A stretch of DNA of 63,859 bases, the filler included, from Chrysochromulina tobinii (Eukaryota), in assembly GCA_001275005.1 (NCBI GenBank). It is 9 parts of 9 records of this genome, joined end to end, with 100 filler letters (N's around TTAATTAATTAA, not from the genome) between each part and the next. Parts side by side here need not be neighbours in the genome. Positions count along the whole stretch, not along the records: positions 48,313 to 57,043 come from JWZX01000007.1; 8 more parts are not named here. One strand, 5' to 3'. Position numbers and translations under genes: made by a program. The notes under the pieces were generated by a model. It searched no databases. It was not told where the DNA came from and saw only the letters and a list, made by a program, of their open reading frames with translations. This document shows, piece by piece, positions 1-63,701 of this stretch. Positions within the stretch are counted from its first letter, which is position 1. Every line of letters begins with the position of its first letter.

Positions 1-61
1 CGAGGCGCTCTGATTGCCCTTGATGGCCTCTGATGACCTCTCTGATTGCCTCCCTCATCAG

Positions 62-1275
62 GCGAGGGCCACGAGGCCAGCAGGCTCTACGCCGAGGCGC
101 TCGAGGTGCAACGTCGATCGCTGGGCGCTGAGCATGAGGAGACACTCGTCACGGCCAATTTGCTCGGCGGTCTCCTCGAGCGGTCGGGTGAGTACGGCGA
201 GGCTGGGGCTCTGTTCCAGGAGACGTACTTGAGGCGGCGGCGCACACTGGGTGACGAGCACGAGCTGACGCTGCAGTCGATGTCCAATCTGGCCTCCTTG
301 CTGACGCAAACGGGCCAGTACGACGACGCGGCGCCGCTACATCGGCAGGCGCTCGACATTCGGCGGCGTAAGTTGGGTGAGGATCACGAGCACACGCTCG
401 TCTCGAAGAGCAACCTGGCCGTGTTGCTGCAGCTGACTGGGCGGCCGGAGGGCGCGGCGCAACTGCTCGAGGAGGTGCTCGAGGGGCAGCGACGAGCTGG
501 TGGCGAAGAGGATGAGGCGACGCTGGTAACCATGGCGAATCTCGCGATCCTGAAGCAGGCCCTAGGGCGCCATCAGGAGGCCGAGGAGCTCCTTCGCGCG
601 CTGATCCGCATGCGCCGGCGGGGGTTGGGATCCGAGCACCCGGACACGCTCACCTCGATGCATGATCTTGCCTTCCTGCTGAGCCAGACGAGCCGCTCCG
701 CCGAGTCCGAACGGCTCTGTAGGCGAGTGCTCGATGCGCGTCGGCGCACTCTCGGCCACGAGCACGAGCAGACGCTGCTCTCCGCCATCCACCTTGGCAA
801 GCTGCTCGAAGACAAGAGCCACTTTGACGAAGCCGAGGCACTCTTCTCCGAGGTAGTCGTTGCGCGAAGGCGTGCGCTGGGTGAGCAGCACGAGGCGACC
901 CTGCTGGGCATGAACTGCCTCTCAGCGCTCCTTGCGCGGATGGATCGAAAGGAAGAAGCCGAGCTCCTTTACCGCAAAATCCTCACCATCAGGCAACAGA
1001 CGCTTGGAGAGACACATCCGCACACGCTGCGCACGATGGTCAGCCTGGGACACTTCCGTGCGTCTCAGGGCGAGACGCAGGAAGCCGCGGGCAATTGGGC
1101 TCAAGCCAGCTCGGCCTATCGCGAGGCGGCTGCGCTCTGTGCGCCCAAGTACGGTGATTCCGCTCCCTTCATCAAGCGCCTTCGAGAGGCGGCCGATAGG
1201 TTGGCCGAGACGCGCTGCATGCAAAACATGGCAGGTAGCGGGCCGCGTAGCGGCGTAGCGAAAGTCTATAGATAA
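62..1275 (+). CDS. TPR-repeat protein (kinesin light chain / nephrocystin-3-like 42-aa repeats), terminal exon; 5' part outside window
   Basis: Repeated LG-x-EH-xx-TL-xx-M-xx-LA units. Bases 1-61 look like an intron 3' end (ctgattgcctccctcatcAG). Confidence 0.85.
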
Positions 1276-25721: not shown

Positions 25722-27731
25722 GGCGCGGCGTTTGGCGACGCGTTCGTCAAGGCGGCGCAGCTGCCGGTAGCCGAGGGGGCGGCCGTGCCAGACAAGGAGG
25801 CGTGGCGGCTGCGCGTGCTCGCCACGCTCGTGCGCAAGGGGCTGCCTGCCGCGTGGCTGCCCACGGCGCTCGAGGCGGCCAAGGGCGTGGCGCGCGAGGC
25901 GGCGCACGAGGCGGGGAAGCTGGCTGCTGCCGACGCGCTCGTCGTGGGCAAGCGCGTGCTCGCCCTCGACGTGATCTGGAAGCAGGCCGTGGTCGCACGC
26001 GTGGAGGGCGACGCGGTGGACGTCAAGGTCCAGGGGTGGGACGAGAAGAAGGGCCTGCCGCGCACCAAGGCGCTCGTCGTCGCCTCCGACGGCGCGGGCG
26101 CGCTCCTCCGTCTCGCCGCAGGGGCGGGCGACGCGGCGCTCGTCGAGGCGCTGCTCGACGCGGGCGTCAACCCGCTCGTCGCCGACGAGCGCGCCAACAC
26201 GCCGCTGCACCGCGCCGCCGCCAGCGGGCACGTGGCCATCTGCCGTGCGCTCGTCGCGAAGGGCGCCGACAAGGAGGAGGAAAACACGCAGAACCAGTCC
26301 GTAGCCGGCGCAGCACAGAACGCCAAGCAGCACGCCGTCGTTCGCCTCTTTGAGCCGACGCTCTCGGACCGCGAGTTCACCGACGAGGCGTGCACGTGCA
26401 CGGAGCGGCTGCGCGCCGCCGCGACGGGGGACCTAGCGACCCTCGCACGCACGCAGGACGCGGGGAGGATCACGGCGCTCATGGTCGCGTCCCGCCGCAA
26501 GCAACTCGCGGCCGTCGTCAAGCTGCTGGCATCCTCAAACGCCTCCACGCTCAATGCGCAGAGCGCCGAGGGCTGCACCGCGCTCTACCTCGCCGCGGAG
26601 GAGGGCGCCGAGCCGATCGTGCAGCAGCTCCTCACTCAAGGGGCGGATGCGGCGCTCGCCGCTTCCGACGGTGGCACTCCACTCATGCGGGCGAGCCATT
26701 TTGGACACCAGCGCTGCCTTCACGTCCTGCTCGAGGCAAAGGCCGACCCAAATATGGCAACGCCCGACGGCGTGACCGCCTTGATGTGCGCTGCCCAAAC
26801 TGGCCACGAGCAGGTCGCTCTCGTCCTGCTCGAGGCGAAGGCGGACCCAAATAAGGCAACGCCCGACGGCGTGACCGCCTTGATCCTCGCTGCCCAAACT
26901 GGCCACGAGCAGGTTGCTCTCGTCCTGCTCGAGGCGAAGGCAGACCCAAATAAGGCAATGTCCGACGGCGTGACCGCCTTGATGTGGGCTGCCCAAAATG
27001 GCCACGAGCAGGTTGCTCTCGTCCTGCTCGAGGCGAAGGCGGACCCAAATAAGGCAACGCCCGACGGCGTGACCGCCTTGATATGGGCTGCCCAAAATGG
27101 CCACGACCATGTTGCTTTCGTCCTGCTCGAGGCGAAGGCGGACCCAAATAAGGCAACGCCCGACGGCGTGACCGCCTTGATCCTCGCTGCCCAAACTGGC
27201 CACGAGCAGGTCGCTCTCGTCCTGCTCGAGGCGAAGGCGGACCCAAATAAGACAATGTCCGACGGCGTGACCGCCTTGATGTGGGCTGCCCAAAATGGCC
27301 ACGACCATGTTGCTTTCGTCCTGCTCGAGGCGAAGGCGGACCCAAATAAGGCAATGTCCGACGGCGTGACCGCCTTGATATGGGCTGCCCAAAATGGCCA
27401 CGAGCAGGTTGCTCTTGTCCTGCTCGAGGCGAAGGCGGACCCAAACAAGGCAACGCCCGACGGCGTGACCGCCTTGATATGGGCTGCCCAAACTGGCCAC
27501 GAGCAGGTCGCTCTCGTCCTGCTCGAGGCGAAGGCGGACCCAAATAAGGCAATGTCCGACGGCGAGACCGCCTTGATGAAGGCTGCCCAAACTGGCCACG
27601 AGCAGGTCGCTCTCGTCCTGCTCGAGGCAGGAGCTGACCGGAACAAGGAGCTTTCTGGTCACAGCGGCTGGAATGCTCTGAAACTTGCGGAGATGGGTGG
27701 ACATTCTGCTGTCTGTGATTTACTGAGGTAA
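25722..27731 (+). CDS. Ankyrin-repeat protein, 5' truncated by contig edge
   Basis: TPLHRAA, TALYLAA, and nine near-identical 99-nt ankyrin units at 26733-27623. Confidence 0.9.
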   Translation, partial: GAAFGDAFVKAAQLPVAEGAAVPDKEAWRLRVLATLVRKGLPAAWLPTALEAAKGVAREAAHEAGKLAAADALVVGKRVLALDVIWKQAVVARVEGDAVDVKVQGWDEKKGLPRTKALVVASDGAGALLRLAAGAGDAALVEALLDAGVNPLVADERANTPLHRAAASGHVAICRALVAKGADKEEENTQNQSVAGAAQNAKQHAVVRLFEPTLSDREFTDEACTCTERLRAAATGDLATLARTQDAGRITALMVASRRKQLAAVVKLLASSNASTLNAQSAEGCTALYLAAEEGAEPIVQQLLTQGADAALAASDGGTPLMRASHFGHQRCLHVLLEAKADPNMATPDGVTALMCAAQTGHEQVALVLLEAKADPNKATPDGVTALILAAQTGHEQVALVLLEAKADPNKAMSDGVTALMWAAQNGHEQVALVLLEAKADPNKATPDGVTALIWAAQNGHDHVAFVLLEAKADPNKATPDGVTALILAAQTGHEQVALVLLEAKADPNKTMSDGVTALMWAAQNGHDHVAFVLLEAKADPNKAMSDGVTALIWAAQNGHEQVALVLLEAKADPNKATPDGVTALIWAAQTGHEQVALVLLEAKADPNKAMSDGETALMKAAQTGHEQVALVLLEAGADRNKELSGHSGWNALKLAEMGGHSAVCDLLR

Positions 27732-28499: not shown

Positions 28500-29298
28500 A
28501 CGCATGCAGCATGCTGCTCACGCATGCTGCTCACCCATGCTCTCTCTCTCGCGCGCGCGCCGCGCGCCGTCCTCGTGCGCGAGAGAGCATGGCGGCACAC
28601 GAGGAACCGTTCCGTTCGACCTCAGCGGGACAGCGGGAAACCACGGTTCCGATCTCTCTAGTGAGATATCGAAGCGTGGCTCTCTCGTTTTCTCTGAGGC
28701 CTTGGGCTCTCGATCGCCAGCTTTTCACGACACTACCCTGACAGGTCCATGTGGCCAAAATGTGTGTACTTCGTGGCCAAAATGTGTGTACTTCGTCAAG
28801 TATCGCCAAGGTGAGGGTCAGGAGAGTCTAGATTAGGGTTTTCTATATATGGTTCTCTAGATTAGGTGGGCAAGACTCACGAGCGGAGAGTGAGAGACGA
28901 GAGAGTCCACTCAGCACTCTCCACACAGTAGCCCATGGCTCTGCGGGGTATGATATTGTCGATTTTCGTGTCCAAGGGTGACCCGTGCCTACGTCGACAA
29001 CCGTACCGTACTGTGTCGTGTCGAGTCTGTGAGCTGCGCTGTGACCTGATGCTCGGCTGAGAGCCATTGCTGTGAGCTGTGAGCTATCCGACGATTCATC
29101 CTGTATCCTAAAAAACACGCCGTGTGCGTGCGTCTCTTTGCGAGGTAAAATGTTTGTATGTTATAACGCGGGGGGACCGCGACGAAACTGACTGACGGAC
29201 TGATGTTTGTATGTATGACGAAACCAACCGCTCCGCGTCGGCTCTGAAATCGACTGACCTTTTCGTTGTTTCGGAGAGCCTTTTGTTAATTTTTGGCC

Positions 29299-31370
29299 AT
29301 GGGCTGTGCCCCCACCAAGCAGCAGCCTGAGTCGCCGGATCCGTACGCCGAGCCGGATGCCGAGCCGGATGCCAAGCCGTCTGCAGACGATGCCCTCGAG
29401 ACACAATTGATGGGGAGCGTCGGCTCTGGCAAGGAAGACACCTTGATGGACAAGCAGACTTTCAATGACGTGGTCGTCGAGCTTGGGCTTCAAGGAATTG
29501 CGGCGGACATGAGTGAGGACGATCACAAAGAGCTCGAAGATTACATCAAGAGCCTAAAGGAACGCCAGACCTCGGTGACAGGCTTCAACCTTTGTCCGCA
29601 CCACGATGAAATTTTGCGAGGCCAGCCACGACCTGAGGAGAAGCCCGCCAAAGCAGCGAGCCGATCCCATATGCATCGCGAGCTGCTGCGCAAGCCGTCA
29701 ATAAAGCAGTCGGTTTTGGATGAGATGGACAACGCGACGGCGCGGATGCAGCCGAGCGCCCGCGAGACCAAGGACATGCTCTTCGCGCTTCACGCCTACA
29801 CGCGGGACGAGATCTACCGCGAGTTCAACCGCGACCACCGCGAGCTTCGGCCTGAGCCTTGGGCTGCTGTCTCGAACACGATGCGCTGCGCCGTGGAAAA
29901 TGCACGCTCGCCAGATGCCGGCGCGACTCTCTACCGCGGCGACACTCGCAACTTGTACACCCTCCGGAAGGGTCAGCTGGACTGCTTTTCTCAGTACACG
30001 AGCGCGAGCCTCAATCGAAGAGTCGCGAAAAGCTTCTCGGGGGACAAGTGGATCTTTGAGATCACGGGTGTCCCGCATACCCACTGCGCAATCATCAAGC
30101 ACGCGTCCAAATACCCGAATGAGGACGAGGTTCTAATTGCGCCCGGGTCCACCTTTTGCGTGGAGAGTGTCGACGAGTCAACCACTCCGAAGGTCGTGCG
30201 TTTGCGCTTTGGCGAGGATGGCAAGCAGGCCGACTGCGAGTGGTGCCTACTGGAGCGCGAATTCAGCACCTCGCGCCTGGTCACTGGTTCGTCAACGATC
30301 ACCGCGTTTGGTGTCGCGCTTGCTGGGAGGGCTCCAGGCAGGCCCCGCGCCGACGGCGACAGGCCCTTAATCGATGGACCATGTTTCAAATGCTTCGATA
30401 AGAACAGCCAGCTGGTCGATGGTACGGGAATGAAGCGACCACTCCTGGTTTCGGCTGCGGGTCGTGGCGCGGCAGGGGTAGCCATGGTAGACTTGCTGCT
30501 CGATCGGTTCGGGCTGGACGTAGATGTGGAGCGGCGCTTCACAGCATCCGACCACGCGGCACAGGCCCTGGAAGCTGCTCTGCGCTCCCCAAGCGGGACT
30601 CCGGGCCGTGCCGACTGCGTCGCCGCGATCATCGGCAACTGCGTACTGCGTCGACCTTCGCCATCCTCAACCTTCGAAGCCATCGTGTCACCGCTGCAGC
30701 TCGGCACCTTGCTGCGAGAGCCAGAACTCGAACGCATCGCTGAGCTAGGACAGAACTACCTCAGCCTTCCCTTGAGCAAGCCACGCGTGGTGTCCCTGTC
30801 AGCGGAGCAGCTCGTGCTCGCCATCCCATGGGCTGATGCAAAGGGCGAGACGCACGAGGCTGTGCCGTCGTGGCTGAAGGACGGGGCGTTGTGGTCAGAC
30901 GCAATTCGTTTTGAAGTCGACGCGTTCTCTGTGGAGTCCGGCGCGCCAGAAGTGGCCGGAAGCCAGGAGATCGATGCCCCATACCACTCGTGGCCCGGGG
31001 GCGCTTATGACATCAGCACAGAGCCATTGCCAGCAGGAGGAGTCCTGCTCAAGATGCCCAACAATCTGGCGCCGCTTGCGTCGAAGCTCTGCGTTGTGCG
31101 CGTTCGTATTGCCGAGGGTCAGTTCATCGCCGGTTCGGCGGCAAAGAGCTACTCGTGCAATCGGCAGTCACTGTGGTCGCTGCGCAGCAATGCGACCGAC
31201 TGGGAGGCTGCAGAGGCGGCTCGAAAGGAGGCAGAGGCCGCCGAGGTCGCAGCCAATGCGGCCAAGGCGGATGCGGACGCAAAGGCGGCAGAAGCGACTC
31301 TGTGGTTTCTGCGCAGCCATGCTAACGCAAAGGCGGCAGCGGAGGCGAAGGCGGCGGCTGAAGGGAAGGC
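29299..31370 (+). CDS. N-myristoylated R-S-E type (ARTC-like) ADP-ribosyltransferase domain protein; 3' truncated
   Basis: MGCAP N-terminus; ALHAYT...LYRG...YTSAS...SKYPNEDEVL motifs. Confidence 0.8.
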
Positions 31371-31470
31371 NNNNNNNNNNNNNNNNNNNNNNNNNNNNNN
31401 NNNNNNNNNNNNNNTTAATTAATTAANNNNNNNNNNNNNNNNNNNNNNNNNNNNNNNNNNNNNNNNNNNN

Positions 31471-33496
31471 CCATCATCGCTGCAGAGTGCTCAGCACGCT
31501 CTGCGGGCTCAGCAAGCTCAGCAAGCTCAGCAAGCTCAGCAAGCTCAGCAAGCTCAGCAAGCTCAGCAAGCTCAGCAAGCTCAGCGTGCTCAGCGTGCTC
31601 AGCAGGTTCAGCATGTTAATTTTGCTCAGCATCCTCATCATGCCCAGCGAGCTCACTGAGCACGATGAGATCATGCTGAGCACGATGAGATCATGCTGAG
31701 CACAATAAGCATGCTGAGCATGCTGAGCACGCTAAGCTTGCTGAGCACGCTGAGCACGCTGAGCACGCTGCGGCGATGTTGGCGATGATGAGCCCACTGA
31801 GCACAATGAGGATGCGCGCTGACGGCTGAGCCCGCTGAGCATGATGAGGATGCTGAGCACGATGAGAATGCTCAGCCTGCTGAGCACGCTGAGCTTGCTG
31901 AGCTTGATGAGCGGGCAGTGCTTGATGAGCTTGCTGATCCTGAGCATGCTGCAGCGATGTTGGCGATGCACGATGAGCATGCTGAGCACACTGAGCGCGA
32001 TGTCGATGAGCTTGCTGAGCACACTGAGCACGATGAGGATGCTGAGCACGATGAGCATACGATGAGCATGCTGAGCACAGTGAGCATGCTGAGCCGGCTG
32101 AGCATGCTGAGCTTGCTGAGCATGCTGAGCTTGCTGAGCCTGCAGAGCACGCTGAGCACAATGCGGCGATGTTGCCGATAATGAGCATGCTGAGCCCGCT
32201 GAGCACCATGAGGATGCTGAGCCCGCTGGGCATGATGAGGATGCTGAGCAAATTTAACATGCTGAACCTGCTAAGCACGCTGAGCTTGCTGAGCTTGCTG
32301 AGCTTGCTGAGCTTGCTGAGCTTGCTGAGCCCGCAGAGCGTGCTGAGCACTCTGCAGCGATGATGGCGATCTTGCACAATGAGCTTGCTGAGCATGCTGA
32401 GCACAATGAGCTTGCTGAGCATGATGAGCTTGCTGAACACGCTGAGCACAATGAGCTCGCTGAGCACAATGAGCCTGCTGAGCCTGCTGAGCCTGCAGAG
32501 CACGCTGAGCTTGCCGAGCCTGCAGAGCACGCTGAGCTTGCCGAGCCTGCAGAGCACGCTGAGCATGCTGCGATGCACGATGAGCATGCTGAGCACGCCG
32601 AGCAGGCTGAGCATGCAGAGCAAGATGAGGATGATGAGCACAATGAGCACAATGAGCTTGCTGAGCTTGCTGAGCTTGCTGTGCTTCCTGAGCCTGCTGA
32701 GCACGCTGCAGCGATGTTGGCGATGCCCTATGAGCACTCTGCGCGCACAATGAGCACGATGAGCTTGCTGAGCCTGCTGAGCATGATGTGGATGCTGAGC
32801 ACAATGAACACAATGAGGATGCTGAACCCGCTGAGCATTAGCTGAGCATGTTGAGCCTGCTGAGCTTGCTGAGCACGCTGAGTAAGCTGGGCCTGCAGTG
32901 CACGCTGAGCACGCTGCGGCGATGTTGGCTGATGATGAGCCGGCTGAGCACGATGAGGATGCTGAGCCCGCTGAGCACAATGAGGATGCTGAGCCTGCTG
33001 AGCTTGCTGAGCCTGCTGAGCTTGCTGAGCTTGCTGAGCTTGCTGAGCTTGCTGAGCTTGCTGAGCCTGCTGAGCACGCTGAGCACGATGCTGCATTGTT
33101 GCCGATGATGAGCATGCTGAGCACGATGAGCACGATGAGGATGCTGAGCCCGCTGGGCATGATGAGGATGCTGAGCAAAATTAACATGCTGAACCTGCTG
33201 AGCTTGCTGAGCTTGCTGAGCTTACTGAGCTTGCTGAGCTTGCTGAGCTTGCTGAGCCCGCAGAGCGTGCTGAGCACTCTGCAGCGATGATGGCGATCTT
33301 GCACAATGAGCACGCTGAGCATGCTGAGCACAATGAGCTTGCTGAGCATGATGCTGAGTACAATGAACACAATGAGGATGCTGAACCCGCTGAGCATGTT
33401 GAGCCTGCTGAGCTCGCTGAGCACGATGAGCATGCTGAGCCTGTTGAGCCTGCAGAGCACGCTGAGCTTGCCGAGCCTGCAGAGCACGCTGAGCTT
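31471..33496. repeat. 9-bp-based (GCTGAGCnn) satellite with higher-order blocks and one inverted block
   Basis: The whole contig is GCTGAGC variants. Blocks at ~32171 and ~33098 recur; 31471-31650 is the reverse complement of ~33151-33293. Confidence 0.9.
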
Positions 33497-48212: not shown

Positions 48213-48314
48213 NNNNNNNNNNNNNNNNNNNNNNNNNNNNNNNNNNNNNNNNNNNNTTAATTAATTAANNNNNNNNNNNNNNNNNNNNNNNNNNNNNNNN
48301 NNNNNNNNNNNNCC

Positions 48315-50000
48315 GGCCACCTCGCCGGCAAGAGTGGCCCGGAGCTCGGGCGGCTGCTGGGTGTCGTGAGCGACTTCCCCACCGAGGCGGAGCGGCAGGC
48401 AGCGACGGAGGAGCCCCTCTACACGCAAGACGCTCAGCACGACGCCACCGCACCGCGAGCGGCCGACGCACCCACACCGCCAGCGCCCGTGTGCTGGCTC
48501 TCGACACAGCTCGTCAACGAGGACGTCCTCGAGGACGCCCTCGCGGACGCCGACGTGCCGACGCTGCGCGCGCTCAAGGGCGTGAGCCTCGCGTGGCGCG
48601 CGCGGGCGCGGCGCGTCCTGTGCGCGCGGCTGTGCGCACGCGTCGGCCTGCCCCTCACGAGCAACCTCGTCGAGGTGACCGAGCTCAACCTCTCGGACAG
48701 CCGCACCGCCGGTCGCCTCTTCGCCGACGCGGTCGACGCGTCGCGCTGGCTGCCCAACCTGGCAAAGGTGACGGGGCTGGGCGGCTTCGAGGTGGACGTG
48801 GCCGCGCTGAGGAGTGTGGCGTCTTCGGATGGATCAGAAGAAGATGAAGATGGTCCGCAACCGTATCCGATGGCAGGGGTGCGCGCATGCATCCGCGGCG
48901 AGGGCGAGGCGCCGATGGAGGTGCTGCTTGCCGCGTGCGTGCTGCGCCGTGGCGAGGCGCGCGTGCCGCCAAGCGCGTTCTTCGAGGACAGGTCGATTAC
49001 GTCGATCGCGCTGCCCGCCGGCCTCACGAGCGTCGGTGAGTTCGCCTTCTGGGGCTGCTCCTCGTTGACGTCGATCGAGCTGCCCGCGGGCCTCACAAGC
49101 CTCGGTGAGGACGCCTTCTCTGGCTGCTCCTCGATGACGTCGATCGAGCTGCCCGCCGGCCTCACGAGCCTCGCTGAGCGCGCCTTCTATGGCTGCTCCT
49201 CGTTGACGTCGATCGAGCTGCCCGCCGGCCTCACGATCCTCGGTCGTGGCGCCTTCGTCGACTGCTCCTCGTTGACGTCGATCGAGCTGCCCGCCGGCCT
49301 CTCGAGCCTCGGTGAGTGCGCCTTCGCTGGCTGCTCCTCGTTGACGTCGATCAAGCTGCCCGCCGGCCTCACGAGCCTCGGTGAGGTCGCCTTCTGTGGC
49401 TGTTCCTCAATGACGTCAATCGCGCTGCCCACCGGCCTCACGAGCATCGATGAGGACGCCTTCTATTACTGCTCCTCGTTGACGTCAATCGAGCTGCCCG
49501 CCGGCCTCACAAGCATCGGTCATGGCGCCTTCCGTGACTGCTCCTCGTTGACGTCGATCAAGCTGCCCGCCGGCCTCACGAGCCTCGGTAAGGAGGCCTT
49601 CACTGGCTGCTCCTCGATAACGTCGATCGCGCTGCCCGCCGGCCTCACGAGCATTGGTGAGGGCGCCTTCAAGGACTGCTCCTCGTTGACGTCGATCGAG
49701 CTGCCCACCGGCCTCACGAGCCTCGGTAAGGAGGCCTTCTATGGCTGCTCCTCGATGTCGTCGATTGAGCTGCCCGCTGGCCTCACGAGCCTCGGTAGGT
49801 ACGCCTTCTATCGCTGCTCCTCGATGACGTCGATCGAGCTGCCCGCTGGCCTCACGAGCCTCGGTGAGGGCGCCTTCTCTGGCTGCTCCTCGTTGACGTC
49901 GATCGCGCTGCCCGACGGCTTCGATGAAAGCATTCTCAGGTTCGCCCAAGTGCCACCCAGCGCCATCCTTCGCTTTGGACCGGCAGTTGACGTCGATTGA
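48315..50000 (+). CDS. Skp1-F-box-BspA-type LRR protein, copy A (5' truncated, 13 LRRs)
   Basis: GKSGPELGRLLGVVSDF (Skp1 tail), EDVLEDAL...LKGVSLAWR (F-box-like), 69-nt repeats at 48993-49889. Confidence 0.85.
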   Translation, partial: GHLAGKSGPELGRLLGVVSDFPTEAERQAATEEPLYTQDAQHDATAPRAADAPTPPAPVCWLSTQLVNEDVLEDALADADVPTLRALKGVSLAWRARARRVLCARLCARVGLPLTSNLVEVTELNLSDSRTAGRLFADAVDASRWLPNLAKVTGLGGFEVDVAALRSVASSDGSEEDEDGPQPYPMAGVRACIRGEGEAPMEVLLAACVLRRGEARVPPSAFFEDRSITSIALPAGLTSVGEFAFWGCSSLTSIELPAGLTSLGEDAFSGCSSMTSIELPAGLTSLAERAFYGCSSLTSIELPAGLTILGRGAFVDCSSLTSIELPAGLSSLGECAFAGCSSLTSIKLPAGLTSLGEVAFCGCSSMTSIALPTGLTSIDEDAFYYCSSLTSIELPAGLTSIGHGAFRDCSSLTSIKLPAGLTSLGKEAFTGCSSITSIALPAGLTSIGEGAFKDCSSLTSIELPTGLTSLGKEAFYGCSSMSSIELPAGLTSLGRYAFYRCSSMTSIELPAGLTSLGEGAFSGCSSLTSIALPDGFDESILRFAQVPPSAILRFGPAVDVD

Positions 50001-50677
50001 GCTTTCCGCTGCCCGCTGGCCTCACAAGCCTCGGTGATGTTGCCTTCTCTGGCTGCTCCTCAATGGTGTCAATAAAGCTGCCTTCCTGCCTCATAAGCCT
50101 CAGTGCCAAAGTGCACTGTCTTAGTACGGTCCTGCAAACCTTCTGCAAACCGTAGCAGCGAGGCGCATTTCATTGGTTCCTAGTACCTAGAGTCCTAGTT
50201 TACTGGTTGGCAGATCATGTGGGCGAAACCAAATGAACTGTGCATATTCGGAATTTATAGCGATTGAATACGATACTTTCGTTTTCCTGGATGCAGAGCG
50301 TAATCATGAACGTAATATAACACGAGGCAGCCGGTGCGAACTGCGAAGCCGGAAGGTGCGTCGCGCCGGTCGTTACACGACCGGACAAAGAGTATCCATC
50401 CGTGCGTTCTCTAGACTCTATACTGTGTAATACTGTGTCTCGCGATGGACCATGCCGGATGGTGTCTCGTGTCGAGTCTCGGGAGCTCATGCTCGGGAGG
50501 GTCTGACGAATTGCTGACGACGCGACTGACGTCCGACCCTCCGCCGGTCCACGTGAAACGAGTGACTGGCGGGGCCCTGCCCCTGGCCGTAAAAGGGGCC
50601 CTTCAGCCATGCCGGATAGGCCCTTGATTATTTAGGCCTTCATGGGGACAATAGGACGCGGCCGCAACGGCGACCGA

Positions 50678-60244: not shown

Positions 60245-60711
60245 GTCGGGGATGAGGTAGTAGAGTGGCCCTGGCGCACGCGCGATCGCCCCCTGCAGCT
60301 TGGTTCTGGACCCGACCGNNNNNNNNNNNNNNNNNNNNNNNNNNNNNNNNNNNNNNNNNNNNTTAATTAATTAANNNNNNNNNNNNNNNNNNNNNNNNNN
60401 NNNNNNNNNNNNNNNNNNGCTGGACCACGCGCTGTGCCCTGCAGTCACTGCTCCATCCTCCCACCAAACCACGTAGGCTGCACCGTCTGCTCTGATAAGA
60501 AATTCATCGCCGTCAAGTTCGTCGCCGTCCCGCCAGCGGCAAACAACGAAGTTGACGACTACGACTACGACCGCTGGTCGTCCGACGAGGATGAGCTTAG
60601 AGAGGGCGACGAGCTCGACGACCGAAACGGGCTTTTCGACGCAGCGCTCGCGGCAGAGGACGATCATCGACATAAGCAGCAGCCGCCGCTGCCGCTGCCG
60701 ATGATGAGCAC

Positions 60712-61318: not shown

Positions 61319-61811
61319 CGCGACAGAGAAGGTGTCTCCCGAGTAGGATCGACGACGGGTCGGCTGCCGACGGTCACGTATTTCGCAGTCGAGTCCGCAA
61401 ATGACCCTCTTGGCGTGCTGGGGGGGGAGACTGAGGAAGGCATTTGTTGAGTTCGGCATAGCATGACTCGCCGCCTAAGCTAGAGACCGGTATGGTTTCT
61501 TTCTAACAAGTCGATTAAGCCATCGGACACCTTCTGTTTCCTGGTTATCTCCCACAGCGGGCCGCGGGGGGGCGTGGGTCCTCAGTGAGTCTCACTCACT
61601 CACTCACTCACTCACTTACTCACTCACTTCTATCACTCACTCTCACCTGACGTGAACGGAAAGACGAAGCCAAGAGCGCCGGCCGTGCCCCACTCCTTGA
61701 GGGTGGGCTCGTGGAGCACCGGTTGCTCTAACTCTCACCGCTTTAGCTCCTGAGTTTCCGAGTTTTGGTTGCAGTTCTTCTCTCTGCCTCGTTTCACGGT
61801 GAAAACAAACA

Positions 61812-63701
61812 TTGAAGCGACGTCGGGTCGGCGGCGGCGGAGACAGCGGCGACGGCGACGTCAACGGCGGCGACGGCGACGACGGCGTTGTGAGGGCGCG
61901 AAGCGCCGAGGGCGAGGAGGTTGTGTGGTCCCGTTCGGCCGCGGCGCGATCGGCGGCGCTCGCCAACTGGGTGAGCGACACGGGCGGCGCCGAGGGGGCG
62001 TTCGCCACTCTGGTGCCTGCGGCTGCGCTCCGCACGCTCTCGCGCGTCGCCGAGGGCGGTGCGGAGGATGGCGGGGCGCTAGAAGGGTGCTCGCTCGCGC
62101 AGCTCGCGCAGCTTTTGCATGGCGCGCACTTTCTCGACGTGGACGTCGAGCTTCTCCGCCTCCTCTCGCGTTCCCTGTGCACCGGCCACCTCGCCGGCAA
62201 GAGTGGCCCGGAGCTCGGGCGGCTGCTGGGTGTCGTGAGCGACTTCCCCACAGAGGCGGAGCGGCAGGCGGCGGCGGAGGAGCCGATTTACACGCAAGAC
62301 GCTCAGCACGACGCCACTGCACCGCGAGCGGCCAACGCACCCACACCGCCAGCCACCGTGTGCTGGTTCTCGGCGCAGCTCGTCAACGAGGACGCCCTCG
62401 AGGACGCCCTCGCGGACGCCGATGTGCCGACGCTGTGCGCGCTCAAGGGCGTGAGCCTCGCGTGGCGCGCGCGGGCGCGGCGCGTCCTGTGCGCGCGGCT
62501 GTGCGCACGCGTCGGCCTGCCGCTCACGAGCAACCTCGTCGAGGTGACCGAGCTCGACCTCTCGGGCAGCCGCGCCGCCGGTCGTCTCATCGCCGACGCG
62601 GCCGACGCATCGCGCGGGCTGCCCAGCCTGGCAAAGGTGACGGGGTTGGGCGGCTTCGAGGTGGACGTGGCCGCGTTGAGGATTGTGGCGTCTTCGGGTG
62701 ACTACTCGTACCCGATGGCGGGAGTGCGCGCGTGCATCCGCGGCGAGGGCGAGGCGCCGATGGAGGTGCTGCTCGCCGCATGCGCGCTGCGCCACGGCGA
62801 GGCGCGCGTGCCGGCGCACGCGTTCCGCGGGGACACGTCGATGACATCGATCGCGCTGCCCGCCGGCCTCACGAGCATCGGTGAGGGCGCCTTCTATGGC
62901 TGCTCCTCAATGACGTCGATCGCGCTGCCCGCCGGCCTCATGAGCATCGCTGAGTTCGCCTTCTCTGGCTGCTCCTCGTTGACATCGATCGAGCTGTCCG
63001 CTGGCCTCACGAGCATCGGTGATAATGCCTTCGATGGCTGCTCCTCGTTGACATCGATCGAGCTGCCCGCCGGCCTCACGAGCATCGGTAGGAGCACCTT
63101 TTACAACTGCTCCTCGATGACGTCGATTGCGCTGCCCGCCGGCCTCACGAGCTTAGGTGAGGCGGCCTTCTGGGGCTGCTCCTTGATGACGTCGATCGAG
63201 CTGCCTGCAGGCCTAACGAGCCTCGGTGGGTACGCCTTCTATGGCTGCTCCGCGATGACGTCGATCGAGCTGCCTGCAGGCCTCACGAGCATCGGTGGGT
63301 GCGCCTTCTGGGGCTGCTCCTGGATGACGTCGATCGCGCTGCCCGCCGGCCTCACAAGCATCGGTTGGAAGGCCTTCTCAGGCTGCTCCTCGATGACGTC
63401 GATCGCGCTGCCCGCCAGCCTCACGAGCATTGGTGGCGCTGCCTTCAATGGCTGCTCCTCGTTGACGTCGATCGCGCTGCCCGCCGGCCTCACGAGCATC
63501 GGTGGGTGCGCCTTTTACAACTGCTCCTCATTGGCGTCGATCAAGCTGCCCGCCGGCCTCACGAGCCTCGGTGATGACGCCTTCAAGGGCTGCTCCTCGT
63601 TGACGTCGATCGAGCTGCCTGCGAGCTTCGATGACAGCACTCTGAGGTCCGCCGGAGTGCCTCCCAGCGCCATCCTTCGCTTTGACTTCGCTTTGCACTG
63701 A
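61812..63701 (+). CDS. Skp1-F-box-BspA-type LRR protein, copy B (11 LRRs; start codon unclear)
   Basis: LAQLLHGAHFLDV..LL...AGKSGPELGRLLGVVSDFPTEAE (Skp1), F-box-like segment, 69-nt repeats at 62838-63596. Confidence 0.85.
   Translation: MKRRRVGGGGDSGDGDVNGGDGDDGVVRARSAEGEEVVWSRSAAARSAALANWVSDTGGAEGAFATLVPAAALRTLSRVAEGGAEDGGALEGCSLAQLAQLLHGAHFLDVDVELLRLLSRSLCTGHLAGKSGPELGRLLGVVSDFPTEAERQAAAEEPIYTQDAQHDATAPRAANAPTPPATVCWFSAQLVNEDALEDALADADVPTLCALKGVSLAWRARARRVLCARLCARVGLPLTSNLVEVTELDLSGSRAAGRLIADAADASRGLPSLAKVTGLGGFEVDVAALRIVASSGDYSYPMAGVRACIRGEGEAPMEVLLAACALRHGEARVPAHAFRGDTSMTSIALPAGLTSIGEGAFYGCSSMTSIALPAGLMSIAEFAFSGCSSLTSIELSAGLTSIGDNAFDGCSSLTSIELPAGLTSIGRSTFYNCSSMTSIALPAGLTSLGEAAFWGCSLMTSIELPAGLTSLGGYAFYGCSAMTSIELPAGLTSIGGCAFWGCSWMTSIALPAGLTSIGWKAFSGCSSMTSIALPASLTSIGGAAFNGCSSLTSIALPAGLTSIGGCAFYNCSSLASIKLPAGLTSLGDDAFKGCSSLTSIELPASFDDSTLRSAGVPPSAILRFDFALH

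What the first reader, a model, noticed from the sequence alone, without database searches (positions are those of the whole stretch)
48993..49889. LRR arrays with an invariant scaffold and four hypervariable codons; different repertoires in the two copies
The 69-nt units are near-identical in DNA except the two codons on each side of AF. Copy A has EF/WG, ED/SG, ER/YG, RG/VD, EC/AG, EV/CG, ED/YY, HG/RD, KE/TG, EG/KD, KE/YG, RY/YR, EG/SG. Copy B (11 units) has others such as DN/DG, RS/YN, GY/YG, WK/SG, DD/KG. The non-repeat regions of A and B are highly similar, while unit number and content differ. Inference: repeat shuffling plus diversifying selection on a binding ridge, consistent with an immune-like (e.g. 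antiviral) degradation system.
Basis: partly seen in the sequence, partly recalled or inferred. Interest (0 to 1): 0.78.

Follow-up and report, generated by a model that had tools for sequence, protein, structure and literature searches.

The report
Algal all-in-one protein-destruction adaptor repertoire
A freshwater haptophyte alga carries dozens of related genes in which a Skp1-type adaptor domain and a likely F-box are fused to a row of near-identical leucine-rich repeats whose four variable positions evolve fast, so each protein would likely grab a different target, plausibly a foreign protein, and hand it to the cell's ubiquitin destruction machinery.

Summary
Observation confirmed: copy A has 13 and copy B 11 BspA-type LRR units of 69 nt. 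Codons 14, 15, 18 and 19 (xxAFxx) vary most; the scaffold is not strictly invariant. A and B lie on separate contigs joined by an artificial linker. They belong to a dispersed Chrysochromulina family (42 gene groups among 75 loci). pN/pS is 2.46 at the four codons and 0.31 in the framework. Units are not collinear between paralogues, and unit number differs between same-locus copies in 4 of 18 cases. This repeat behaviour is not new: homogenised bacterial BspA arrays vary at the same four positions, fungal NWD repeats evolve alike, and this scan noted similar arrays in a phage. The new part is the N-terminus: a full Skp1 domain (profile E 2e-13; fold Z 12.2) followed by a weaker F-box-like motif, under purifying selection, in one chain with the LRR. 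The module also occurs in Phaeocystis with other repeat types. Best reading: single-chain SCF-type substrate receptors with a diversified binding ridge. Cullin binding, targets and any antiviral role are untested. I found no description of the fusion in the searched papers.

The parts
48213..48312 (.). Artificial contig linker (44N-TTAATTAATTAA-44N); cuts off the 5' end of copy A
   Evidence: true upstream flank in L057 does not match the window piece before it
48315..50000 (+). Copy A open frame, 5'-truncated (full length 685 aa in P0036; ATG present in L057)
48315..48413 (+). Copy A: C-terminal end of the Skp1-like domain
48507..48644 (+). Copy A: F-box-like motif (inferred from relatives; no Pfam hit on this copy itself)
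48999..49895 (+). Copy A: 13 BspA/TpLRR units of 69 nt; variable codons 14, 15, 18, 19 (49038-49043 and 49050-49055 in unit 1)
49896..50000 (+). Copy A: C-terminal cap and stop
49990..50105 (+). Decayed, frameshifted extra repeat units overlapping and following the stop of A; similar remnants follow several paralogues
60319..60418 (.). Artificial contig linker before the piece that holds copy B
61812..63701 (+). Copy B open frame; TTG at 61812 where most paralogues have ATG (L-K-R-R-R versus M-K-R-R-R)
61887..62282 (+). Copy B: full-length Skp1-like domain
62376..62513 (+). Copy B: F-box-like motif (three predicted helices)
62844..63602 (+). Copy B: 11 BspA/TpLRR units of 69 nt
63603..63701 (+). 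Copy B: C-terminal cap and stop

Best explanation
These genes encode one-chain proteins made of a Skp1 domain, a likely F-box and a BspA-type LRR array, and they likely act as self-contained SCF-type substrate receptors whose four fast-evolving repeat positions would form a variable binding ridge, plausibly for foreign proteins. Steps: (1) SHOWN: Skp1 fold at the N-terminus and an LRR solenoid at the C-terminus in one open frame, with no signal or membrane segment. (2) INFERRED: the F-box-like motif docks on its own Skp1 domain across the flexible linker, and the Skp1 domain docks on a cullin-RBX1 core, so the cell's ordinary Skp1 is not needed. (3) SHOWN: point substitutions at codons 14, 15, 18 and 19 are in excess over synonymous change, and units are duplicated, lost and exchanged within and between dispersed paralogues, giving a germline repertoire. 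(4) INFERRED: these residues line one face of the solenoid and set specificity. (5) UNTESTED: bound targets are ubiquitinated and degraded, and they come from viruses, Polinton-like elements or other invaders.
For: Skp1: a family profile hits PDB Skp1 over about 130 positions, best E 2.4e-13. All 43 rows shown for the N-terminal model by Foldseek are entries of Skp1-containing complexes. VIA top hit is Skp1 1ldk_D, Z 12.2, rmsd 2.5 over 109 residues. F-box: Pfam F-box-like in 13 of 66 aligned members at E<=0.05, best 1.5e-5; P0380 passes the PF00646 cut-off; weak PDB hit to F-box protein GID2 at the same place, E 0.22. Purifying selection over 42 genes: pN/pS 0.34 for Skp1 and 0.20 for the F-box. 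Repeats: pN/pS 2.46 versus 0.31 over 429 unique units, with pS similar at both site classes (0.215 versus 0.180); pN>pS at the four codons in 40 of 40 arrays. No collinearity between paralogues (mean 12.0 differences on the diagonal and 12.0 overall) although N-termini are a median 93% identical; 298 quads in 410 units. Positions 15 and 18 are 32-34% aromatic and position 14 is 67% charged. The module carries other C-termini (RI-like LRR, ankyrin) in Phaeocystis antarctica and Chrysochromulina, as expected of an adaptor with exchangeable binders. An engineered nanobody-SKP1 fusion degrades its target in a red alga (PMC12770821, passages). C. parva has two giant viruses and three Polinton-like viruses (PMC12085832, passages).
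Against: No binding, ubiquitination or infection data. The window's own proteins reach neither the Pfam Skp1 cut-off (12.8 versus 22.3 bits) nor any F-box hit. The Skp1 motif AANYLD reads GAHFLD in this family; I recall that Asn as cullin-contacting, but one paper search found nothing on it. Among unit pairs that differ by one base, omega at the four codons is only 1.06 (30 edges); it rises to 2.2-2.3 with larger steps. The same four positions vary in bacterial BspA arrays, so the pattern says nothing specific about immunity. In the model these positions lie outside the TSIEL strand that forms the usual concave LRR binding face. Copy B lacks the ATG. pN/pS is a pairwise count on non-independent, recombining units.
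Confidence: 0.52

Rival explanations
1. The proteins are diversified binders, but the Skp1-F-box module no longer recruits a cullin. It is a closed, self-satisfied unit or oligomerisation module, and the proteins sequester, sense or act as decoys for viral F-box/SCF hijacking.
For: Only about 20% identity to Skp1 and GAHFLD for AANYLD. BTB domains, many of which only oligomerise, score close behind Skp1 (Z about 10). CpV-BQ1 encodes six F-box proteins (PMC12085832).
Against: The whole Skp1 length including the F-box-binding C-terminal helices is kept under purifying selection; relatives keep GANYLD/GANFLD.
Confidence: 0.17
2. They are working degraders, but the arms race is internal or social: selfish toxin-antidote elements, transposon proteins, or self/non-self recognition in mating or fusion, not viruses.
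For: The same evolutionary regime marks fungal allorecognition genes (PMC4986451). Most copies begin with an MKRRR-like basic run resembling a nuclear signal (the signal role is inferred).
Against: No linked toxin, transposase or fixed partner among 78 of 125 flanking ORFs scanned; neighbours are unrelated eukaryotic genes.
Confidence: 0.17
3. The four positions are simply the tolerant surface of the BspA fold. Gene conversion homogenises the rest, and the family is a largely neutral expansion.
For: The same positions top the entropy list in 12 homogenised bacterial arrays. One-step omega is about 1. Some copies have lost the start or the cap.
Against: pN at the four codons (0.53) is about three times synonymous diversity (0.18-0.21), while third positions keep the ancestral base, for example Ala at 18 is GCT in 53 of 53. 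Other non-core positions (1, 2, 10, 11, 21, 22) stay conserved.
Confidence: 0.1
4. A dedicated hypermutation or somatic assembly machine (DGR- or VLR-like) writes the variable codons.
For: First and second codon positions vary while third positions stay fixed, superficially like DGR targets.
Against: Four of seven framework adenines vary by under 4%; pS is not raised at the four codons. No reverse transcriptase in the ORFs scanned. Thirteen of 18 same-locus sets have identical arrays.
Confidence: 0.03

Closest known systems
SCF (Skp1-Cullin1-F-box) ligases with F-box/LRR receptors; expanded F-box families of nematodes and plants proposed to degrade foreign proteins (PMC4063957, passages; Thomas 2006 cited there, not read)
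   Same: Skp1 fold, F-box-like motif followed by an LRR binder, large family with conserved adaptor part and fast-evolving binder
   Different: Skp1 and F-box are in one chain; the binder is a bacterial-type BspA LRR of homogenised 69-nt units; cullin binding untested
BTB-Kelch/BTB-MATH single-chain adaptors of Cullin-3 (recalled; BTB folds rank just below Skp1)
   Same: One polypeptide joins a BTB/Skp1-fold cullin adaptor to a substrate-binding repeat
   Different: Here the sequence match is to Skp1 including its C-terminal F-box-binding helices, followed by an F-box-like motif
Fungal NWD/HET-E-type NLRs with highly conserved WD, ANK or TPR repeats (PMC4986451, passages)
   Same: High internal repeat identity, exchange within and between genes, repeat-number polymorphism, positive selection on four positions per repeat
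   Different: No NACHT/NB-ARC or death domain; LRR instead of WD/ANK/TPR; the likely output is ubiquitination
BspA/TpLRR proteins (Pfam PF13306; PDB 4FS7, 4GT6, 6MLX; Trichomonas BspA family PMC2843621)
   Same: Repeat consensus and fold; the same xxAFxx positions are the most variable in homogenised bacterial arrays
   Different: No signal or membrane segment, and fused to a Skp1 module; the database label 'surface antigen-like' is likely wrong for this family
F-box-FNIP/FGxxFN LRR proteins of giant viruses (PMC9525666, first part and passages)
   Same: Large repertoires of near-identical LRR units with two variable residues beside a Phe; many fused to an F-box
   Different: Viral, a different LRR class, no fused Skp1 reported in the passages read; the present family was not found in viral contigs
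Engineered nanobody-SKP1 degraders in Cyanidioschyzon (PMC12770821, passages)
   Same: A binder covalently joined to Skp1 is enough for SCF-dependent degradation in an alga
   Different: Artificial, uses the native Skp1, no F-box in the chain

Membership tests
BspA/TpLRR repeat (PF13306) | 23-residue LxxIxLPxxLxxIGxxAFxxC repeat and fold | tested here: met
   Pfam E 4e-109 and 8.8e-93; Foldseek top hits 4FS7, 4GT6, 4H09, 6MLX
BspA surface antigens | Signal peptide or membrane anchor | tested here: not met
   Highest 19-residue hydropathy 1.27-1.34 in three proteins, 1.83 at the C-terminus of P0039; N-termini are basic or polar (simple window test only)
Skp1 | POZ core plus C-terminal helices over the full Skp1 length | tested here: met
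   Profile E 2.4e-13; Foldseek; VIA Z 12.2, rmsd 2.5, 109 aligned. The window proteins alone stay below the Pfam cut-off; P0264 passes it
Skp1 | Binds Cullin-1 | not testable with these tools
   No cullin sequence of this organism was obtained; motif reads GAHFLD for AANYLD
F-box | About 45-residue three-helix motif matching PF00646/PF12937 | tested here: inconclusive
   No hit on the window copies; 13 of 66 relatives at E<=0.05; P0380 above cut-off; three helices at model residues 169-209; pN/pS 0.20
F-box | Docks on Skp1 C-terminal helices | not tested
SCF substrate receptor | Ubiquitination and degradation of a bound substrate | not testable with these tools
   Needs an experiment
Fungal NWD-type NLR | Central NACHT/NB-ARC domain | tested here: not met
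   Pfam finds only LRR families; the model leaves no room for one
Fungal NWD-type NLR | Homogenised repeats, exchange, four positively selected positions, repeat-number polymorphism | tested here: met
   Within-array identity 0.83 and between-gene 0.826; pN/pS 2.46; 4 of 18 loci differ in unit number (assembly error not excluded)
Diversity-generating retroelement | Adenine-specific mutation from a template repeat | tested here: not met
   Four of seven framework adenines nearly invariant; variation at all bases of the variable codons
Diversity-generating retroelement | Linked reverse transcriptase | tested here: inconclusive
   None among 29 window ORFs or 78 of 125 flank ORFs; whole genome not held
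VLR-like somatic LRR assembly | Incomplete germline gene, with a different array in each cell | tested here: not met
   Complete arrays, identical in 13 of 18 same-locus sets across assemblies

The most novel reading that the evidence does not exclude
Haptophytes have evolved a natural repertoire of genetically encoded single-chain degraders: a private Skp1 fused to its own F-box and an exchangeable binding array. In Chrysochromulina it is diversified by concerted evolution into dozens of antibody-like receptors that destroy proteins of giant viruses or Polinton-like viruses, and it bypasses the shared Skp1 pool that viral F-box proteins hijack. This would be an intracellular innate immune system of a bloom-forming algal lineage.
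Probability: 0.3. Interest if true: 0.85.

Novelty: new variant of a known kind. Interest (0 to 1): 0.64.

Why it matters
Little is known about how unicellular algae resist the viruses that end their blooms. This gives a concrete, countable candidate repertoire in a culturable host with isolated viruses, with specific residues to test. A natural Skp1-F-box-binder fusion would be a Cullin-1 counterpart of the single-chain BTB adaptors and a natural version of engineered Skp1 degraders. It also corrects an annotation: these 'surface antigen-like' proteins are probably intracellular. The control suggests that xxAFxx is the general variable face of BspA-type LRRs.

Tried and rejected
No whole genome is held, so copy number per genome and the cullin complement are unknown. 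Viral origin: no relative of the N-terminal module in viral contigs, and one weak repeat-only locus. Mobile element or defence island: flanks of different paralogues are mostly unrelated; homology typically starts at the ATG; no transposase, reverse transcriptase or viral gene among 78 of 125 flank ORFs of 280 aa or more. A few tandem copies exist. DGR and somatic assembly were rejected. Single-sequence searches of the N-terminus gave nothing useful, and the Atlas gave only sub-0.9 LRR leads. A search for longer fused forms returned only P0051 (weak evidence). Solvent exposure of the variable sites could not be computed because model coordinates are not provided. Expression is only a hint. Contigs of four RNA libraries cover 20-26 of 30 bins of the non-repeat part of B at 90% likeness or more, versus 2-11 of 30 bins on a neighbouring stretch beside A. 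A multicopy gene also gains from DNA carry-over, and the runs were found with this gene. Unit-number differences were not checked on raw reads. Thomas 2006 and the Tp0225 structure paper were not held. The Skp1 cullin-contact search found no paper.

Full report
1. What the sequence shows. The window is nine pieces joined by a fixed linker. Copy A (48315-50000, cut at its 5' end) and copy B (61812-63701) lie on different pieces, and the real upstream flanks in L057 and L001 do not match the preceding pieces. A has 13 and B 11 units of 69 nt, classed as BspA-type LRR and folding like bacterial BspA solenoids. Entropy is highest at unit positions 15, 18 and 14, then 4 and 19; positions 12 and 23 switch between two residues. 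The 5' non-repeat parts match at 610 of 662 aligned bases.

2. Organism and family. A search with the non-repeat part of B gave 103 proteins, most at 85-95% identity; the named ones are Chrysochromulina tobinii 'surface antigen-like' proteins, and one cluster holds a C. parva record. A metagenome scan found 127 matches and kept the best 80 as 75 loci. With the two window copies these form 42 gene groups, with N-termini 88.8-98.1% identical, and 37 independent arrays. This is a population-level count, not a per-genome count. The genes read as single open frames among unrelated eukaryotic neighbours, with a few tandem pairs and triplets.

3. Selection. Over 429 unique units, pN/pS is 2.46 at codons 14, 15, 18 and 19, 1.49 at 4, 12 and 23, and 0.31 at the other 16. 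Synonymous diversity is similar in the first and last class (0.215, 0.180), so there is no local hypermutation. Leaving out the gene groups of A and B (402 units), the bootstrap range is 2.30-2.64 against 0.47-0.54. In 40 of the 40 arrays with six or more distinct units, pN exceeds pS at the four codons (2 of 42 dropped as too short). Against this, among the 30 one-base steps of a spanning tree omega is only 1.06, rising to 1.37, 2.23 and 2.34 for steps up to 2, 3 and 6 bases. The counts are pairwise, uncorrected and not independent. Third positions keep an ancestral base whatever the residue, which fits point substitution under selection.

4. Shuffling. Units within an array (0.83) are no more alike than units between genes (0.826). 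Matching positions in two paralogues are no closer than random pairs (12.0 versus 12.0 differences), and only 8.4% of units have a partner within 5 differences (595 pairs). Five of 37 arrays hold an exact internal duplicate. L005 and L030 share their last two units and tail, and one further unit is identical in L013 and L052 at different positions. Of 18 gene groups with two or more complete copies, 13 have identical arrays, 4 differ in unit number and 1 by a point change at codon 18. A has 15 units in L057, and B has 12 in L001. L052 and L054 differ by five codons in one unit. Short-read collapse may explain some length differences, and the samples may be one population. The repertoire is germline and fairly stable, not somatic.

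5. Control. Of 81 loci fetched with the A array as query, 74 had six or more regular units. In the 12 with at least 70% internal identity, the most variable positions are again 15, 18, 14 and 19, with pN>pS in 11. The four-codon pattern is therefore a property of homogenised BspA arrays in general. Two earlier notes of this scan describe the same pattern in a phage; they prompted this control, and I did not check that phage. Fungal NWD genes show the same regime, with four selected positions per repeat (PMC4986451, passages).

6. The N-terminus. A 7-sequence profile hit PDB Skp1 at E 2.8e-6, and a 66-sequence profile at 2.4e-13 over the whole domain. The N-terminal model (mean pLDDT 62, higher in the first 100 residues) matches Skp1-complex entries in all rows shown by Foldseek and Skp1 first by VIA, Z 12.2, with BTB domains close behind. 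A low-confidence linker follows, then three helices. This motif scores as F-box-like in 13 of 66 members, passes the Pfam cut-off in P0380 and weakly hits GID2, but gives no hit in the window copies. Both parts are under purifying selection over 42 genes (0.34 and 0.20). A simple hydropathy test on four proteins found no clear membrane segment. The module is wider than this family: relatives at about 40% identity include Phaeocystis antarctica, C. parva and C. tobinii records, and a profile search found 172 clusters at E<=1e-30 (that count includes partial matches). Of 29 of these scanned, 15 have RI-like LRR tails and 2 BspA tails. In a quick, unfinished tree of 36 rows, the 10 BspA-tailed members form one side of a branch (P0382 and P0361 not included).

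7. Mechanism. Shown: architecture, Skp1 fold, selection pattern and unit turnover. Inferred from SCF biology (own knowledge): the F-box docks on its own Skp1 domain, the Skp1 domain binds a cullin, and the LRR presents substrate. A binder fused to SKP1 degrades its target in a red alga (PMC12770821, passages), so the design can work. Inferred: the four residues are exposed, being 67% charged at 14, about a third aromatic at 15 and 18, and almost never Pro. They lie after the second short strand, not on the TSIEL strand, so the putative ridge is not the usual concave face. Untested: targets. Expanded, fast-evolving SCF adaptors have been proposed, and partly shown, to act against intracellular pathogens in C. 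elegans (PMC4063957, passages). C. parva has giant and Polinton-like viruses, one with six F-box genes (PMC12085832, passages). Against a working ligase: about 20% identity to Skp1, GAHFLD for AANYLD (the cullin role of that Asn is recalled), and a TTG start in B.

8. Literature. Full-text searches returned no paper describing a natural Skp1-F-box fusion or this family. I judged most results from listings only; the library lacks most subscription papers, and no supplements were read, although genome-paper tables could mention it. Also seen: PMC9525666 (first part and passages), PMC2843621 (passages, nothing relevant), PMC5678704 (one passage, not a fusion) and PMC13749626 (one reference line). 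Thomas 2006 and the Tp0225 structure paper were not read.

9. Verdict. The feature is real. The repeat evolution is of a known kind. The single-chain Skp1-F-box-LRR design and its expansion in haptophytes appear undescribed and make a testable candidate for intracellular non-self recognition in algae. Class: new variant of a known kind. Interest 0.64; confidence in the full mechanism 0.52.

Noticed in passing
window 15404-60418: Eight identical 100-nt linkers (44N-TTAATTAATTAA-44N) join nine pieces; for the two checked, adjacency across the linker is not real.
   Followed up: partly
window 61812-61814; L001-L004: Copy B and its same-locus copies have TTG where 38 of 42 gene groups have an in-frame ATG. 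Possibly a decaying gene, a near-cognate start or an upstream exon; RNA contigs of relatives cover 61674-61797.
   Followed up: partly
L001-L075, 5' flanks: Homology between paralogues usually starts at the ATG (median 68 nt upstream of the match start), while small subgroups share indel-riddled upstream motifs. This suggests coding-only homogenisation or retrocopy-like dispersal.
   Followed up: partly
L056/L057 versus window copy A: The 15-unit form carries a two-unit duplication whose junction unit (ER/YG) differs by one base, at variable codon 15, from the simple crossover product of the 13-unit form.
   Followed up: partly
window 26723-27628 (+): Ankyrin array of about 9 units of 99 nt, 92% alike, with variation clustered at a few positions: the same evolutionary style in an unrelated gene.
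   Followed up: no
window 29290-31422 (+): ORF with an ADP-ribosyltransferase domain (Pfam ART, E 1.6e-14). L058:6989-8614 (-) also hits an ADP-ribosyltransferase family and L059:3367-6795 (+) a PARG domain, both beside family members.
   Followed up: no
window 46-1275 (+); L048:1584-4670: Kinesin-light-chain-type TPR arrays (TPR_10/TPR_12), a repeat type used by fungal NLRs.
   Followed up: no
window 31489-33494: About 2 kb of 9/18/27-nt partly palindromic satellite filling a whole contig.
   Followed up: no
P0103-P0223, P0260-P0390: A wider haptophyte superfamily with the same Skp1-F-box-cap module and RI-like LRR tails (often labelled RanGAP), one ankyrin tail (P0138) and distant BspA tails (P0382, P0361). 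172 clusters at E<=1e-30; two clusters include transcriptome records.
   Followed up: partly
L077, L087, L111, L124, L142 and others: Homogenised bacterial BspA arrays show pN>pS at the same four positions (11 of 12 arrays with at least 70% internal identity).
   Followed up: partly
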